A stretch of 6,379 bases of DNA. Origin: Paraphysomonas bandaiensis (lineage: Eukaryota > Protista > Chrysophyceae). This document shows positions 1 through 6,379 of this stretch, piece by piece. A program made the position numbers and the translations under genes. The notes under the pieces are model-generated. The model was given only the letters and a program-made list of their open reading frames with translations, ran no database searches and had not been told where the DNA came from. The stretch is taken from the NCBI GenBank assembly GCA_965644295.1, contig CBFFRP010000630.1:1-6379 (forward strand). Direction: 5' to 3'. Numbering within the stretch: position 1 is the stretch's first letter; every line of letters begins with the position of its first letter.

Positions 1-71
1 GAAATAATATTTTGGGTAAATTATTTCCTATATATACACCTCTGTATCAGTATCGTACCCGAGAAGTTATC

Positions 72-93
72 TCGGTGTAAGATCGGTGTAAGA
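72..93 (+). repeat. 11-bp tandem duplication (TCGGTGTAAGA x2), also at 2013-2034
   Basis: Seen directly: tcggtgtaaga tcggtgtaaga. Confidence 0.85.
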
Positions 94-436
94 TGGCTTG
101 GACGAACAAATGTTATCATTACCTTGGAAGCTAACTGAACTCATATTGGCGGTGAAGACATCTGAAGTGCACAATGCTTCTGCTTCTTAGCAGGTGATTG
201 GGAGCTAGTTTACACTTTGGTTCAGATTTCTCGTGGTATGTATATTAGTAGGTTCTAAGTAGTAATTGCCGTTAATTTTTACTTCGTAAGATGTTAATGC
301 GAATACCATCTTATTTTAATTGAATACATGCTTTGTCTTTTCATAATTGATACAGATCTGCAATATTGCTGGTTTTTATATTATTTCCTACTTTGCAATA
401 TATATATTATACTGTGTTTATTGTTGTTAATTATAG

Positions 437-584
437 TACCTCTAGGTCGTATTGGTATTATATTTTTAGGTAGTACCTATAGGTAGTATTGATACATGTA
501 GGCAGTGCCTGTAGGTACATTTTAATATAAATAGGGATACTTATCAGTAGGAAATGTAGAGGTTATAGATACCACCTATAGGGA
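437..584. repeat. Cluster of degenerate palindromic 12-mers (consensus TACCTRTAGGTA)
   Basis: TACCTCTAGGTC 437, TATTTTTAGGTA 461, TACCTATAGGTA 474, TACATGTAGGCA 493, TGCCTGTAGGTA 506, CACCTATAGGGA 573. Confidence 0.7.
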
Positions 585-832
585 GGCGATTAGGCACGTG
601 TATTAGTGCAATATCATATGTCGATATTGGCATCATTTAATCCAACCATAAGTCCAACGCTCCTGACATACTCCTCATTGGGGTAACCAGCCATTAGTGG
701 ATCATTTTCTTCCAACAGCATTCTTAGTACTGCAATAGCTGCACTTAACTTAGAACGTCTTTCTTAGGCGCTTCTTCCATAATATTCTATGCAGGTAGCA
801 CTAATATTCTATTTAAGATAGATGGTAAATAT

Positions 833-1490
833 CAAGATACAAAGCACCCTATATCTAGGTGACAATGATTGACATGTTTCAATACACCGTCCTTATTTAC
901 ATCAATACGTATAGGGCACAGTGAGAAAGTAATATATCTTACATTCATATTAGTATATACATACTCAATTGACAATTGAAGTTATTCTTGCGTGGGTCTC
1001 TCCATTATCGAACTCTGAAGTGTCATTTTCGTCATATGCTCTGTATCATAGAATCAAAATTTCTAAATTAAATATTTTCACAACATAATTCAAGAACGTT
1101 ATCCTAAGACTCCTCTGGTGTTACAGGACAATCGAGTTCATACGGCTCCGCAGAGTATGCTGCACGTCAACAATGATTGACATGCTCCAACACAGTATCT
1201 TTATATACATCAATACGCACAGGACACTATGAGAAAGTATCTATAAATGATACAATCATAGTAGTATTTACCTTCAAATCAGAGAGGAGAATGACACTCA
1301 AGTGGAGTTATTCTTATGTGAGTCTCTCTGATGATCAGCTCTGCAGTATGCGTATATTCATATTCTCTGTTTCGAACCACTAAATTGAATATATTACAAT
1401 ATCATCCGATCGTATTACCTGAGAGCCCTCTGGTGTTATGGTCATGGAATCAACTCTGCTATCTCTGTCTTTGAAATAGACCAACTCTCC
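833..1490 (-). pseudogene. Tandem-duplicated copy of decayed paralogous units B and A
   Basis: Identical to 2774-3431. acaatgattgacatg occurs at 862 and 1170, and ctctggtgtta at 1113 and 1428. Confidence 0.55.
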
Positions 1491-2377
1491 TGTATGATTG
1501 CCACTTAACCATACCTTTCACCAGCTAAATCAACAACCAGCAGCATGTGGCATGAAAGAACTATGAGCTCATGAGAAATTATGACCCAACCTGCAGATTA
1601 AAACAAAGGACGATTGATGGAGTCGTTAATGGACTGACATGACTTCACTGTACCGCAAGATTCATGCTGTTCAAGACCAGTATGATGACTTTTATCCGCT
1701 TGAGACAACTGAGTCATGTGTGTGGTTATTACCCTCAGAAGAGACAGTGAAGTGGAAGAGGGCCCTTACAAGAGGATAAAATACTGCTTGAATCGTTATT
1801 TTGCAGAATGTATGCTCAGTGTGCATCATGTGAAGTTCTCCCGATAATTCAAGGATTCAAGTAATGTGACCGTTAGCATCTTCAATATCCATCAATGGGG
1901 GGCAGCGTTCATGTTAGTATTATTAATGCATGCAATTAATAGAAATAATATTTTGGGTAAATTATTTCCTATATATACACCTCTGTATCAGTATCGTACC
2001 CGAGAAGTTATCTCGGTGTAAGATCGGTGTAAGATGGCTTGGACGAACAAATGTTATCATTACCTTGGAAGCTAACTGAACTCATATTGGCGGTGAAGAC
2101 ATCTGAAGTGCACAATGCTTCTGCTTCTTAGCAGGTGATTGGGAGCTAGTTTACACTTTGGTTCAGATTTCTCGTGGTATGTATATTAGTAGGTTCTAAG
2201 TAGTAATTGCCGTTAATTTTTACTTCGTAAGATGTTAATGCGAATACCATCTTATTTTAATTGAATACATGCTTTGTCTTTTCATAATTGATACAGATCT
2301 GCAATATTGCTGGTTTTTATATTATTTCCTACTTTGCAATATATATATTATACTGTGTTTATTGTTGTTAATTATAG

Positions 2378-2525
2378 TACCTCTAGGTCGTATTGGTATT
2401 ATATTTTTAGGTAGTACCTATAGGTAGTATTGATACATGTAGGCAGTGCCTGTAGGTACATTTTAATATAAATAGGGATACTTATCAGTAGGAAATGTAG
2501 AGGTTATAGATACCACCTATAGGGA
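2378..2525. repeat. TACCTRTAGGTA cluster, copy 2
   Basis: Same sequence as 437-584, offset by 1941. Confidence 0.7.
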
Positions 2526-2773
2526 GGCGATTAGGCACGTGTATTAGTGCAATATCATATGTCGATATTGGCATCATTTAATCCAACCATAAGTCCAACG
2601 CTCCTGACATACTCCTCATTGGGGTAACCAGCCATTAGTGGATCATTTTCTTCCAACAGCATTCTTAGTACTGCAATAGCTGCACTTAACTTAGAACGTC
2701 TTTCTTAGGCGCTTCTTCCATAATATTCTATGCAGGTAGCACTAATATTCTATTTAAGATAGATGGTAAATAT

Positions 2774-3431
2774 CAAGATACAAAGCACCCTATATCTAGG
2801 TGACAATGATTGACATGTTTCAATACACCGTCCTTATTTACATCAATACGTATAGGGCACAGTGAGAAAGTAATATATCTTACATTCATATTAGTATATA
2901 CATACTCAATTGACAATTGAAGTTATTCTTGCGTGGGTCTCTCCATTATCGAACTCTGAAGTGTCATTTTCGTCATATGCTCTGTATCATAGAATCAAAA
3001 TTTCTAAATTAAATATTTTCACAACATAATTCAAGAACGTTATCCTAAGACTCCTCTGGTGTTACAGGACAATCGAGTTCATACGGCTCCGCAGAGTATG
3101 CTGCACGTCAACAATGATTGACATGCTCCAACACAGTATCTTTATATACATCAATACGCACAGGACACTATGAGAAAGTATCTATAAATGATACAATCAT
3201 AGTAGTATTTACCTTCAAATCAGAGAGGAGAATGACACTCAAGTGGAGTTATTCTTATGTGAGTCTCTCTGATGATCAGCTCTGCAGTATGCGTATATTC
3301 ATATTCTCTGTTTCGAACCACTAAATTGAATATATTACAATATCATCCGATCGTATTACCTGAGAGCCCTCTGGTGTTATGGTCATGGAATCAACTCTGC
3401 TATCTCTGTCTTTGAAATAGACCAACTCTCC
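2774..3431 (-). pseudogene. Left-arm copy of decayed paralogous units B and A
   Basis: Reverse complement of ~4295-4949. acaatgattgacatg recurs at 2803 and 3111 (offset 308). Confidence 0.55.
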
Positions 3432-3682
3432 TGTATGATTGCCACTTAACCATACCTTTCACCAGCTAAATCAACAACCAGCAGCATGTGGCATGAAAGA
3501 ACTATGAGCTCATGTATTCCCAGTGAGGTTATGATCATATCACAGCCTGTGTTCCTCTTATTACTGTAAAAGTATCGCATCGTATCCTGTATGTGAAGCT
3601 AACAGACATCTGCCTGTCTCTGGATTCTGTGGACAATATGCCGATTATTATCTTGAAAATGTGTAGTTTTGTGACATATTTT

Positions 3683-4044
3683 AGTGAAAAACCAGGGGAT
3701 TTTTTAGTTTAGGTTGTGTAATTCATTTTACATAGTTCTTCTAGTTTCGCTAAACCCAAAAACTCACACACACTACAATAGAGAATAATTTTTTCTCGTG
3801 TAAATTATTTTACACAACTCCCAAAAATCCAGCCTTTAGTTTTACATAGATCGGGGGGTTTTTAAAAACCCCCCGATCTATGTAAAACTAAAGGCTGGAT
3901 TTTTGGGAGTTGTGTAAAATAATTTACACGAGAAAAAATTATTCTCTATTGTAGTGTGTGTGAGTTTTTGGGTTTAGCGAAACTAGAAGAACTATGTAAA
4001 ATGAATTACACAACCTAAACTAAAAAATCCCCTGGTTTTTCACT
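3683..4044. repeat. Perfect 362-bp spacer-less palindrome (181-bp arms); candidate terminus junction or resolution site
   Basis: Position x pairs with 7727-x without mismatch from the centre (G6T5|A5C6) out to 3683/4044. The first mismatch is at 3682/4045. Confidence 0.95.
3716..4011. promoter_or_regulatory. Array of dyad motifs GTGTAA-N6-TTACAY; putative protein-binding sites
   Basis: GTGTAAttcattTTACAT at 3716-3733 and GTGTAAattattTTACAC at 3798-3815, mirrored at 3912-3929 and 3994-4011. Half-sites TTTTACATAG at 3840-3849 and CTATGTAAAA at 3878-3887. The function is inferred. Confidence 0.5.
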
Positions 4045-4289
4045 CAAAAATGTCACAAAACTACACATTTTCAAGATAATAATCGGCATATTGTCCACAG
4101 AATCCAGAGACAGGTGTCTGTTAGCTTCACATACAGGATACGATGCGATACTTTTATAGTAATAAGAGGAACGCAGGCTGTGATATGATCATAACCTCAC
4201 TGGGAATACATGAGCTCATAGTTCTTTCATGCCACATGCTGCTGGTTGTTGATTTAGCTGGTGAAAGGTATGGTTAAGTGGCAATCATA

Positions 4290-4614
4290 CTGGAGAGTTG
4301 GTCTATTTCAAAGACAGAGATAGCAGAGTTGATTCCATGACCATAACACCAGAGGGCTCTCAGGTAATACGATCGGATGATATTGTAAATATATTCAATT
4401 TAGTGGTTCGAAACAGAGCATATGAATATACTCATACTGCAGAGCTGATCATCAGAGACTCACATAAGAATAACTCCACTTGAGTGTCATTCTCCTCTCT
4501 GATTTGAAGGTAAATACTACTATGATTGTATCATTTATAGATACTTTCTCATAGTGTCCTGTGCGTATTGATGTATATAAAGATACTGTGTTGGAGCATG
4601 TCAATCATTGTTGA
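4290..4614 (+). pseudogene. Decayed coding unit B (unknown ~100-aa domain), including ORF 4298-4483
   Basis: Fragments ITPEGSQVIRSDDIVNIFNL..RAYEYTHTAE and, in another frame, TFS*CPVRIDVYKDTVLEHVNHC* (4543-4614). Aligns at peptide level with unit A ~310 bp downstream. Contains stops and frameshifts. Confidence 0.6.
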
Positions 4615-4639
4615 CGTGCAGCATACTCTGCGGAGCCGT

Positions 4640-4949
4640 ATGAACTCGATTGTCATGTAACACCAGAGGAGTCTTAGGGTAACGTCCTTGAATTATGTTG
4701 TGAAAATATTTAATTTAGAAATTTTGATTCTATGATACAGAGCATATGACGAAAATGGCACTTCAGAGTTCGATTGTGGAGAGACCCACGCAAGAATAAC
4801 TTCAATTGTCAATTGAGTATGTATATACTAATATGAATGTAAGATATATTACTTTCTCACTGTGCCCTATACGTATTGATGTAAATAAGGACGGTGTATT
4901 GAAACATGTCAATCATTGTCACCTAGATATAGGGTGCTTTGTATCTTGA
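4640..4949 (+). pseudogene. Decayed coding unit A, a paralog of unit B
   Basis: Fragments VTPEES*, VVKIFNL, RAYDENGTSEFDCGETHARIT and TFSLCPIRIDVNKDGVLKHVNHCHLDIGCFVS* (4851-4949). Several differences from unit B are synonymous third-position changes (tgt/tgc, aaa/aag, gat/gac, gtg/gta). Confidence 0.6.
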
Positions 4950-5375
4950 TATTTACCATCTATCATAAATAGAATATTAGTGCTACCTGTAACACTCTGC
5001 AGAGGATGAATACGCCAGCCTATTAGTAGAATATTATGTTGACATTACCATGATACCTGGTAATCGTAGGTAGTATATATTGATTATTCATAATAAGATG
5101 CAATTTCTTCACTCTGGAAGTTGCTTGTAAATAGTATTGTAATTGTAGACTTATCCATAGTTGTTGATTTATTGCTATTATGGAAGAAGCGCCTAAGAAA
5201 GACGTTCTAAGTTAAGTGCAGCTATTGCAGTACTAAGAATGCTGTTGAAAGAAAATGATCCACTAATGGCTGGTTACCCCAATGAGGAGTATGTCAGGAG
5301 CGTTGGACTTATGGTTAGATTAAATGATGCCAATATCGACATATGATATTGCACTAATACACGTGCCTAATCGCC

Positions 5376-5523
5376 TCCCTATAGGTGGTATCTATAACCT
5401 CTACATTTCCTACTGATAAGTATCCCTATTTATATTAAAATGTACCTACAGGCACTGCCTATATGTATCAATACTACCTATAGGTACTACCTAAAAATAT
5501 AATACCAATACGACCTAGAGGTA
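5376..5523. repeat. TACCTRTAGGTA cluster, right-arm inverted copy
   Basis: Reverse complement of 2378-2525. Confidence 0.7.
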
Positions 5524-6379
5524 CTATAATTAACAACAATAAACACAGTATAATATATATATTGCAAAGTAGGAAATAATATAAAAACCAGCAATATTGA
5601 AGATCTGTATCAATTATGAAAAGACAAAGCATGTATTCAATTAAAATAAGACGGTATTCGCATTAACATCTTACGAAGTAAAAATTAACGGCAATTACTA
5701 CTTAGAACCTACTAATATACATACCACGAGAAATCTGAACCAAAGTGTAAACTAGCTCCCAATCACCTGCTAAGAAGCAGAAGCATTGTGCACTTTAGAT
5801 GTCTTCACCGCCAATCTGAGGTGTATATATAGGAAATAATTTACCCAAAATATTATTTCTATTAATTGCATGCATTAATAATACTAATATGAACGCTGCC
5901 CCCCATTGATGGATATTGAAGATGCTAACGGTCACATTACTTGAATCCTTGAATTATCGGGAGAACTTCACAGGATGTACACTGAGCATACATTCTGCAA
6001 AATAACGGCCCAAGCAGTATTTTATCCTCTTGTAAGGGCCCTCTTCCACTTCACTGTCTCTTCTGATGGCAATAACCACACACATGAAGCAGTTGTCTCA
6101 AGCGGATAAAAGTCATCATACTGGTCTTGAACAGCATGAAGCTTGCGGTACAGTGAAGTCATGTCAGTCCATTAACGACTCCATCAATCGCCCTTTGTTT
6201 TAATCTGCAGGTGGGGTCATAATTTCACCCCACAATAGACTGTCTGTGTGTCTATGTATGGTCATGACCTTCACATCTAACACACTCCTGCCAGTATACC
6301 AGCAACCGTATATACAAAATACATACTCTAATAATACGTAATTTACACAATTTTACATAGTTTCGACCGTTTAGAAAAA

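What the first reader, a model, noticed from the sequence alone, without database searches (positions are those of the whole stretch)
1575..6226. Spacer-less 4.65-kb imperfect palindrome: candidate head-to-head junction of linear-replicon termini or hairpin telomere
Seen: two ~2.3-kb arms abut with no spacer at GGGGGGTTTTT|AAAAACCCCCC, and they differ by ~34 substitutions plus arm-specific indels of up to 144 bp. Established: spacer-less palindromic junctions arise as replicated hairpin telomeres (protelomerase/ResT systems of phage N15 and Borrelia; similar near-palindromic concatemer junctions in poxviruses), or when a linear genome with terminal inverted repeats is circularised. Inference: a replicated or read-through single hairpin would give identical arms, so diverged arms favour two different ends (left and right TIRs) joined, or an old maintained palindrome. 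The centre does not resemble the N15 telRL or Borrelia telomere sequences I know, so it may be an undescribed end structure.
Basis: partly seen in the sequence, partly recalled or inferred. Interest (0 to 1): 0.85.

Follow-up and report, generated by a model that had tools for sequence, protein, structure and literature searches.

The report
Back-to-back join of a tandem repeat
The palindrome is real, but it is two slightly different copies of a 2.5-kb gene-free repeat joined back to back at the repeat's end; that repeat is normally joined head to tail, and is likely a rolling-circle-type mobile element of a marine microbial eukaryote rather than a telomere.

Summary
The spacer-less palindrome is confirmed (35 substitutions, 6 indels). 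It is not the two ends of a linear genome. Window 3864-6374 is one 2,511-bp non-coding unit, joined head to tail in 6 of 6 public runs laid: a circle or tandem array. The two arms are two natural variants of that unit meeting at the same end. The join lies exactly on the symmetry axis of the normal junction (16 of 24 positions; 2 of 5,022 axes score as high). Only a blunt, zero-overhang join reproduces it; a protelomerase-type 6-nt cut does not. The inverted join also shows in 1 of 4 runs tested (X6), at about a twentieth of the head-to-tail depth, so it recurs outside this contig. Diverged relatives stop matching at the same end and run into different flanks. Best reading (0.5): inverted junction between arrays of a non-autonomous rolling-circle-type element. 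Rivals: gene-free minicircle family (0.22), library or assembly chimera (0.2), hairpin telomere (0.04). Host and enzyme were not identified.

The parts
3864..6374 (+). One complete 2,511-bp non-coding repeat unit (right arm plus 148 bp of tail); 6375-6379 are the first 5 bases of the next copy
   Evidence: Joint 6374 to 3864 in 4 of 4 runs; loose ends behind 3863 in X1 and X2 equal the reverse complement of 6345-6374
1575..3863 (-). Second copy of the unit in opposite orientation (left arm); lacks the 148-bp tail and 179 bp of interior, has 100 bp that the right copy lacks
   Evidence: Alignment; its alleles are seen in public runs
1..1573 (-). Third, partial copy, identical to 1942-3514; joined to the left arm through one extra base (1574) by a deletion of about 0.5 kb across a head-to-tail junction
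   Evidence: this join is not among the 15 of 19 joints shown
3683..4044 (.). Perfect 362-bp palindrome around the inverted join at 3863/3864
   Evidence: depth out to 3878 in X6 only, of 4 runs
3864..3887 (+). Unit end A: five A, six C, then a 10-bp motif (3878-3887) that starts 14 nt from the axis
   Evidence: (I23, D19)
6351..6374 (+). Unit end B: inverted copy of the same 10-bp motif (6351-6360), also 14 nt from the axis; the two ends match at 16 of 24 positions
   Evidence: 2 of 5,022 possible axes in the unit score as high
3912..3929 (.). 7-bp-stem hairpin 48-66 nt inside end A (mirror copy at 3798-3815)
1981..2080 (.). 100-bp segment present in the left copy, deleted in the right copy
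   Evidence: seen as loose ends at 5820 in X6 and X14
4992..5182 (.). 35-bp and 144-bp segments present in the right copy, deleted in the left; the 144-bp deletion is flanked by a 7-bp direct repeat
   Evidence: spanned by high-depth contigs in X14 (records 12 and 14)
5083..5154 (.). About 70-bp block shared with other contigs that have different flanks
   Evidence: Loose ends before 5073/5083 and behind 5154/5162 in 4 of 4 runs
5376..5523 (.). Four palindromic CCT-NN-AGG boxes, candidate protein-binding sites (inferred)
   Evidence: 4 in the unit against a mean of 0.34 and a maximum of 2 in 100 shuffles; the motif was chosen after seeing it
4344..4919 (.). Old internal duplication, period about 308 bp, about 70% identical (4344-4611 and 4658-4919)

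Best explanation
The palindrome is a blunt back-to-back join of two variant copies of a 2.5-kb gene-free repeat that is normally joined head to tail, and the repeat is likely a non-autonomous rolling-circle-type mobile element of a marine microbial eukaryote. Shown: unit length and ends, the head-to-tail join, natural variation between the arms, the position of the inverted join on the symmetry axis of the normal junction, related sequences sharing only the ends. Inferred: an enzyme encoded elsewhere (none found here) would recognise the 10-bp inverted motifs and cut at the unit boundary; rolling-circle copying would give the head-to-tail arrays or circles; now and then two copies would be joined, or inserted, T-run end to T-run end, which gives a spacer-less palindrome with unequal arms. 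The window would then be two arrays pointing at each other, the left one carrying a recent duplication and a deletion across one junction.
For: Head-to-tail joint 6374 to 3864 in 4 of 4 runs at single-contig depths 58.4, 499.6, 23 and 2964, close to the depth of interior contigs of the same runs, and as a 30-of-30 loose end in X1 and X2. Arms are natural variants: 15 of the 40 variant rows shown fall on arm-difference sites and all 15 give the left-arm base (110 rows hidden); 2 more sites give the right-arm base; 3 of 3 small indels are seen in public runs. Defined end: diverged relatives in X1, X6 and X14 stop matching at 3862/3863 and go on in different sequence. End symmetry 16 of 24 in register. 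Only a zero-overhang join at the axis gives the centre. Inverted join in X6: depth 24.4 at 3864-3873 and 12.2 at 3874-3883, i.e. cover to 3878, exactly where a 31-letter word graph must stop at a perfect palindrome; X6 shows only the non-window base at 8 right-arm sites, so it is probably not the source of the window. No coding capacity, no tRNA, no Rfam family at gathering score. Read on the strand with the T-run last, the unit can be taken to start T-C and end in four T; Helitron2 elements insert after TTTT, FoHeli1 ends in ATTTT, and joined ends and tandem copies are reported (PMC5148889, passages). Inverted tandems of transposons are known and rarer than head-to-tail ones (PMC5932611, passages).
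Against: No Rep/helicase or transposase was found or could be searched in the host, no empty site was seen, and the host is unidentified. The 10-bp inverted repeat is shorter than, and placed differently from, Helentron subTIRs (12-15 bp, 2-4 nt from the 5' end and 38-60 nt from the 3' end; PMC4067079) and FoHeli repeats (3' copy about 20-50 nt from the end); here it is symmetric, and there is no hairpin at the 5' terminus. Short-read contigs cannot tell arrays from free circles. Nearly all copies of the main family, and a second family in X2, carry the head-to-tail join, which free circles explain as well. The inverted join is absent in 3 of 4 runs tested (X1, X2, X14), including the deepest; the X6 record has only 15 letters past the centre, below the tool's 31-letter bridging rule, and is not among the 21 records listed in table 8 (86 hidden). 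The flank letters of the diverged relatives are mostly low-agreement consensus of 2 contigs. The tool warns that contig depth is no copy number.
Confidence: 0.5

Rival explanations
1. The unit is one class of a family of gene-free extrachromosomal or organellar minicircles; the classes share a conserved origin of about 220 bp that spans the junction, and the palindrome is a rare head-to-head dimer made at a cut in that origin.
For: Head-to-tail join at about interior depth in 4 of 4 runs. A 2,077-nt contig in X2 shares only about 217 nt across the junction and then diverges at 3700, with the same loose end in X2, X6 and X14; a 2,751-nt contig in X14 shares 63 nt of the end: class-sized molecules with a common block. 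Size is in the range of kinetoplastid and diplonemid circles (PMC7049700: 2-12 kb).
Against: Best match to CSB-3 is 9 of 12, reached by 76 of 100 shuffles (28 of 100 at edit distance 2); CSB-1 7 of 9, reached by 81 of 100. No unique cassette: high-depth contigs cover the whole unit. No gene piece found. Low-depth variants bunch near 92-108 in X14 and 32-41 in X6 (hand-picked values), which looks like a single-copy level only 15-30 times below the main family; weak, since depth is no copy number.
Confidence: 0.22
2. The repeat is real, but this contig is a library or assembly chimera: a fold-back or blunt ligation at the unit end, with the assembler taking different variants on the way in and out and unrolling a loop to give the perfect duplication.
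For: The contig holds three joins (1573/1575, the 179-bp deletion, the 100-bp deletion) that are not among the 15 of 19 joints shown for four runs; the duplication is 100% identical; the population is heterogeneous enough to give mosaic paths (147-303 contigs laid per run); the window ends 5 bases past the unit end (chance about 0.2%), as at a graph branch; 3 of 4 runs lack the inverted join.
Against: The same axis recurs in X6, which appears not to be the source. MDA inverted chimeras typically have 5-8 nt of overlap, a distance peak at 250-300 nt, and are reported as sample-specific (PMC9984789, passages); here the distance is zero and simple fold-back priming would keep the asymmetric loop, which the centre does not. 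Differences are substitutions and polymorphic indels, not homopolymer errors.
Confidence: 0.2
3. One reading: hairpin telomere or left/right terminal repeats of a linear replicon, resolved by a protelomerase-like enzyme.
For: The native junction is an imperfect palindrome and the window holds a perfect version on the same axis, which recalls telRL and its replicated forms.
Against: The head-to-tail form dominates (about 20 to 1 in X6, only form in X1, X2, X14). All known protelomerases cut 6 bp apart at a self-complementary core (PMC3558466, passages); the native core is not self-complementary and a 2-, 4-, 6- or 8-nt overhang does not give the centre. No protelomerase or any gene beside the site, unlike telN next to telRL (PMC10612081). 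No match in 50,697 phage or 72,556 plasmid records.
Confidence: 0.04

Closest known systems
Non-autonomous Helitron2/Helentron elements (HINE, DINE-1, FoHeliNA; PMC4067079, PMC5148889, passages seen)
   Same: No coding capacity, defined ends with a run of T at the boundary, short subterminal inverted repeat, a hairpin near one end, joined ends or tandem copies, internal duplications, subfamilies sharing ends but not interiors.
   Different: Inverted repeat only 10 bp and symmetric (14 nt from each end) instead of asymmetric; hairpin lies inside the repeat, 48-66 nt from the end; no 5' terminal hairpin; head-to-tail join is the main form, not a rare one; no autonomous partner or empty site seen.
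Inverted tandems and tandem arrays of DNA transposons (P, hobo, Bari1-type arrays; PMC5932611, passages seen; Bari1 from memory)
   Same: Head-to-tail copies with deletions across junctions; rarer, strain-limited inverted junctions with a palindromic centre.
   Different: No target-site duplication between copies could be shown; the outermost 2 nt of the two ends differ, unlike most cut-and-paste TIRs (from memory).
Kinetoplastid minicircles and diplonemid mitochondrial chromosomes (PMC7515712, PMC6868439, PMC7049700, PMC5658414, passages seen)
   Same: 2-3 kb, circular-mapping, non-coding, several classes sharing a short conserved block, A-tracts near it, marine source.
   Different: No significant CSB match, no unique cassette, no gene module or guide RNA identified.
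Protelomerase sites (N15/PY54 telRL, TelA, ResT; PMC3558466, PMC10612081, passages seen)
   Same: Imperfect palindrome with a perfect derivative on the same axis.
   Different: Core not self-complementary, geometry needs zero overhang, no enzyme gene, uncut form dominates.

Membership tests
Protelomerase hairpin telomere | Self-complementary 6-bp core cut with a 6-nt stagger | tested here: not met
   Native core is not self-complementary; modelled 6-nt cut does not give the window's centre, only a zero-overhang join does (rule from PMC3558466)
Protelomerase hairpin telomere | Protelomerase gene beside the site | tested here: not met
   Longest ORF 68 aa in table 11; 0 of 12 longest frames (codes 11, 4, 6) reach a Pfam cut-off. 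The rest of the genome was not available
Protelomerase hairpin telomere | Covalently closed ends in native DNA | not testable with these tools
   Only contigs of public runs were available
Linear genome with terminal inverted repeats | Unique interior beyond the two arms | tested here: not met
   Left of 1575 lies another copy of the repeat; right of 6374 the unit starts again in 4 of 4 runs
Helitron2/Helentron non-autonomous element | No coding capacity, T-run boundary | tested here: met
   relatives end after four or five T
Helitron2/Helentron non-autonomous element | Asymmetric subterminal inverted repeat of 11-16 bp | tested here: not met
   10 bp, 14 nt from each end; a further copy lies 128 nt inside end A; definitions
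Helitron2/Helentron non-autonomous element | Hairpin near the 3' end | tested here: inconclusive
   7-bp stem 48-66 nt from the T-run end, inside the inverted repeat, further in than the 8-35 nt of HINEs
Helitron2/Helentron non-autonomous element | Joined ends or tandem copies | tested here: met
   6 of 6 runs laid; not specific to this family
Helitron2/Helentron non-autonomous element | Autonomous Rep/helicase partner with the same ends; empty insertion sites | not testable with these tools
   No host genome held; no match in the searchable collections
Kinetoplastid minicircle | CSB-3 and CSB-1 blocks | tested here: not met
   9 of 12 and 7 of 9, reached by 76 and 81 of 100 shuffles (motifs from PMC6868439). 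Bodonid variants could not be read
Kinetoplastid minicircle | Phased A-tracts beside the conserved region | tested here: inconclusive
   Tracts at 4036, 4046, 4057, 4068 are 10-11 nt apart but on mixed strands; no shuffle control
Kinetoplastid minicircle | Guide RNA gene complementary to an edited mRNA | not testable with these tools
   No maxicircle or small-RNA data for the host
Diplonemid mitochondrial chromosome | Unique cassette with a gene module inside a constant region | tested here: not met
   All 30 bins are covered at high depth in 4 of 4 runs and high-depth contigs span the candidate region; no Pfam match. Short modules could be missed
MDA inverted chimera | Short overlap with non-zero distance, unique to one sample, arms copied from one template | tested here: not met
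   Zero distance, arms are different variants, same axis in X6 (features from PMC9984789). Library type of X6 and of the window is not on record

The most novel reading that the evidence does not exclude
An undescribed family of gene-free 2-2.8-kb DNA circles in a widespread marine protist, whose classes share only a dyad-symmetric origin of about 220 bp that an unknown host or helper enzyme cuts bluntly on its axis; the circles roll into head-to-tail multimers, sometimes join back to back, and leave integrated relics in the genome.
Probability: 0.15. Interest if true: 0.7.

Novelty: new member of a known kind. Interest (0 to 1): 0.3.

Why it matters
If the best reading holds it is an ordinary kind of thing (an inverted junction in a repeat array), of use as a marker for an abundant marine eukaryote and as a warning that spacer-less palindromes in short contigs need not be telomeres. 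The residual interest is that the repeat has no match in the collections searched, has symmetric ends unlike described Helitron2/Helentron ends, is almost always joined head to tail, and shares its junction with other 2-2.8-kb families; if these are free circles, they would be a new class of gene-free replicon with a precisely defined cut site that can be tested directly.

Tried and rejected
No host genome is held. Exact-pattern scans found nothing in IMG/VR, JGI metagenomes or GTDB genomes; blastn of 3864-6379 found nothing in phages or plasmids. A gapped two-motif pattern gave 7 IMG/VR loci; none has similarity to the window at E 0.01, and the one whose ORFs I listed (L003) is gene-dense: chance. 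Rfam: 13 matches, all below gathering score and all on the palindrome. No tRNA/tmRNA. ORFs under 7 stop-codon sets: longest frames at or within the 95th percentile of 200 shuffles, the lowest p being 0.045 and 0.05 among 7 tests; 3 weak Pfam hits below cut-off among 12 frames. Bacterial promoter-like sites at chance level (11 against 12.7); 4 terminator-like sites against 1.0 are explained by the palindromic boxes in part and were not pursued. My early idea of a hypervariable guide-RNA cassette at 5075-5165 (note) was dropped: the block is shared, not unique. The recalled likeness to CSB-3 failed the shuffle test. piggyBac/Kolobok-type TTAA target (recalled) rejected: the native junction and the flanks of relatives lack TTAA. 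X5 and X13 were not tested for the inverted join. Earlier findings: nothing by sequence or first word search. PMC1369900 was not held and the supplement of PMC7515712 could not be read; both may hold bodonid conserved blocks that bear on the minicircle rival. Nine literature searches showed no paper whose title or abstract start describes this element; that covers only the held library.
Full report
Observation. The palindrome is as described: arms 1575-3863 and 3864-6226, no spacer, 181 bp perfect on each side, 35 substitutions and 6 indels (100, 4, 2 nt left only; 144, 35, 1 nt right only). It is 28-45% GC in 300-base windows and non-coding: longest ORF 68 aa, no frame clearly longer than in shuffles under 7 stop-codon sets, 0 of 12 frames at a Pfam cut-off, no tRNA, no Rfam family at gathering score.

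Where it occurs. No host genome is held and no match was found in IMG/VR, JGI metagenomes, GTDB, phage or plasmid records (six of these are exact-pattern scans and can miss variants). The run index lists 24 runs, 14 of which hold half or more of the words: marine, seawater and hydrocarbon metagenomes and four coded single-organism labels. I laid 6 of these runs. That the host is a microbial eukaryote is inference from the absence of genes, the absence from GTDB and the repeat structure; it was not identified.

The unit. Laying four runs on 3864-6379 gave a joint from 6374 back to 3864 in 4 of 4, at contig depths 58.4, 499.6, 23 and 2964, close to interior contigs of the same runs. In X1 and X2 contigs continue behind 3863 with the reverse complement of 6345-6374, 30 of 30 letters. 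So 3864-6374 is one 2,511-bp unit, normally head to tail: a circle or a tandem array, which short-read contigs cannot tell apart. The window ends 5 bases into the next copy. The left junction at 1573/1575 reads as a deletion of about 0.5 kb across such a head-to-tail junction, with one extra base and no microhomology.

The arms are natural variants. Of the 40 variant rows shown (110 hidden), 15 fall on arm-difference sites and all 15 carry the left-arm base; two further sites carry the right-arm base; the 3 small indels are all seen in public runs. The 100-bp left-only and the 179-bp right-only segments are both present in public runs, so each arm is a deletion derivative of a unit of about 2.6 kb. 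At several sites the right-arm base was not seen in any of those four runs, so it is private to the window's source or in error.

The join. The normal junction is an imperfect palindrome: a 10-bp motif stands 14 nt from the axis on both sides and the ends match at 16 of 24 positions; 2 of 5,022 possible axes in the unit score as high with 24-nt arms, 6 of 5,022 with 30-nt arms. The inverted join sits exactly on this axis. Of all cut pairs within 20 nt, only a zero-overhang join gives the observed centre; protelomerase-type staggered cuts and fold-back priming keep the asymmetric core and fail. In one search one run of four, X6, has depth past the centre: 24.4 over 3864-3873 and 12.2 over 3874-3883, that is cover to 3878, the point at which a 31-letter word graph must stop in a perfect palindrome (that these contigs were built with 31-letter words is from my own knowledge). 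This is about a twentieth of the head-to-tail joint in X6. X6 shows only the non-window base at 8 right-arm difference sites, so it is probably independent. Against: X1, X2 and the much deeper X14 show zero, the record has only 15 letters past the centre (under the tool's bridging rule) and was not listed, and the library type is not on record.

Relatives. Diverged contigs in X1, X6 and X14 match up to 3862/3863 and then go on in different sequence; a 2,077-nt contig in X2 shares about 217 nt across the junction and diverges at 3700, with the same loose end in X2, X6 and X14; a 2,751-nt contig in X14 shares 63 nt; contigs of 5.6 and 6.1 kb hold 60-70-nt fragments. Other sequences join into the tail at 6233, 6288 and 6311. 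So several families share the ends and differ inside. Low-depth variants bunch near 100 in X14 and near 38 in X6 (hand-picked values), which may be a single-copy level, but the tool warns that depth is no copy number.

Mechanism. The simplest account is a non-autonomous element with defined ends, multiplied head to tail by rolling-circle-type copying (inferred) and now and then joined or inserted end to end in opposite orientation. Read with the T-run last, it can be taken to begin T-C and end in four T, and the palindrome centre is then two such ends around a T-A pair. Helitron2 elements insert after TTTT, FoHeli1 ends in ATTTT and has joined-end forms (PMC5148889, passages); Helentrons carry 2-5 T at the boundary (PMC4067079, passages); inverted tandems of transposons are known and rarer than head-to-tail ones (PMC5932611, passages). 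It works like these elements, but I do not file it as a member: the inverted repeat is 10 bp and symmetric, there is no 5' hairpin, and no partner enzyme or empty site could be sought. Confidence 0.5.

Rivals. Free minicircles with a shared origin explain the dominance of the head-to-tail join and the class-sized relatives equally well (0.22), but the likeness to kinetoplast CSB-3 is at chance level (motif from PMC6868439, passages) and there is no unique cassette as in diplonemids (PMC7049700 and PMC5658414, passages); bodonid blocks could not be read (PMC7515712 passages seen). A chimera of library or assembly remains possible for this contig (0.2), since three of its joins are not among the 15 of 19 joints shown; typical MDA features are not met (PMC9984789, passages). 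A hairpin telomere is unlikely (0.04; PMC3558466 and PMC10612081, passages). Passages of bioRxiv 10.64898/2026.09.29.755400 and PMC8061765 gave no sequence detail of use.

Verdict. Real sequence feature, wrong family: a back-to-back junction of a normally head-to-tail, gene-free 2.5-kb repeat. New member of a known kind; interest 0.3. The open and more interesting question is whether the repeat family is chromosomal or a set of free circles.

Noticed in passing
window 1-1573 and 1942-3514: Perfect duplication with a 1,941-bp period that removes the junction region; either a very recent array duplication or an unrolled assembly loop.
   Followed up: partly
window 6375-6379: The window ends 5 bases past the unit end, with the same five A that begin the unit; unlikely by chance (about 0.2%), unexplained.
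   Followed up: partly
window 5083-5154: About 70-bp block shared with many other contigs that have different flanks in 4 of 4 runs; possible small RNA or binding site.
   Followed up: no
window 5376-5523: Four palindromic CCT-NN-AGG boxes within 150 bp, above shuffles; candidate protein-binding array.
   Followed up: partly
window 3700-3863, run X2 record 13: A second family of at least 2,077 nt shares only about 217 nt across the head-to-tail junction; the same divergence point is seen in X2, X6 and X14.
   Followed up: no
window 4344-4919: Old internal duplication of about 308 bp, about 70% identical, with a better-kept 70-bp block (81%).
   Followed up: partly
L003:3001-3214 and L003:4938-4969: A giant-virus MAG contig carries several copies of a 30-bp intergenic hairpin whose arms equal the 10-bp motif; no other similarity to the window, taken as chance.
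   Followed up: partly
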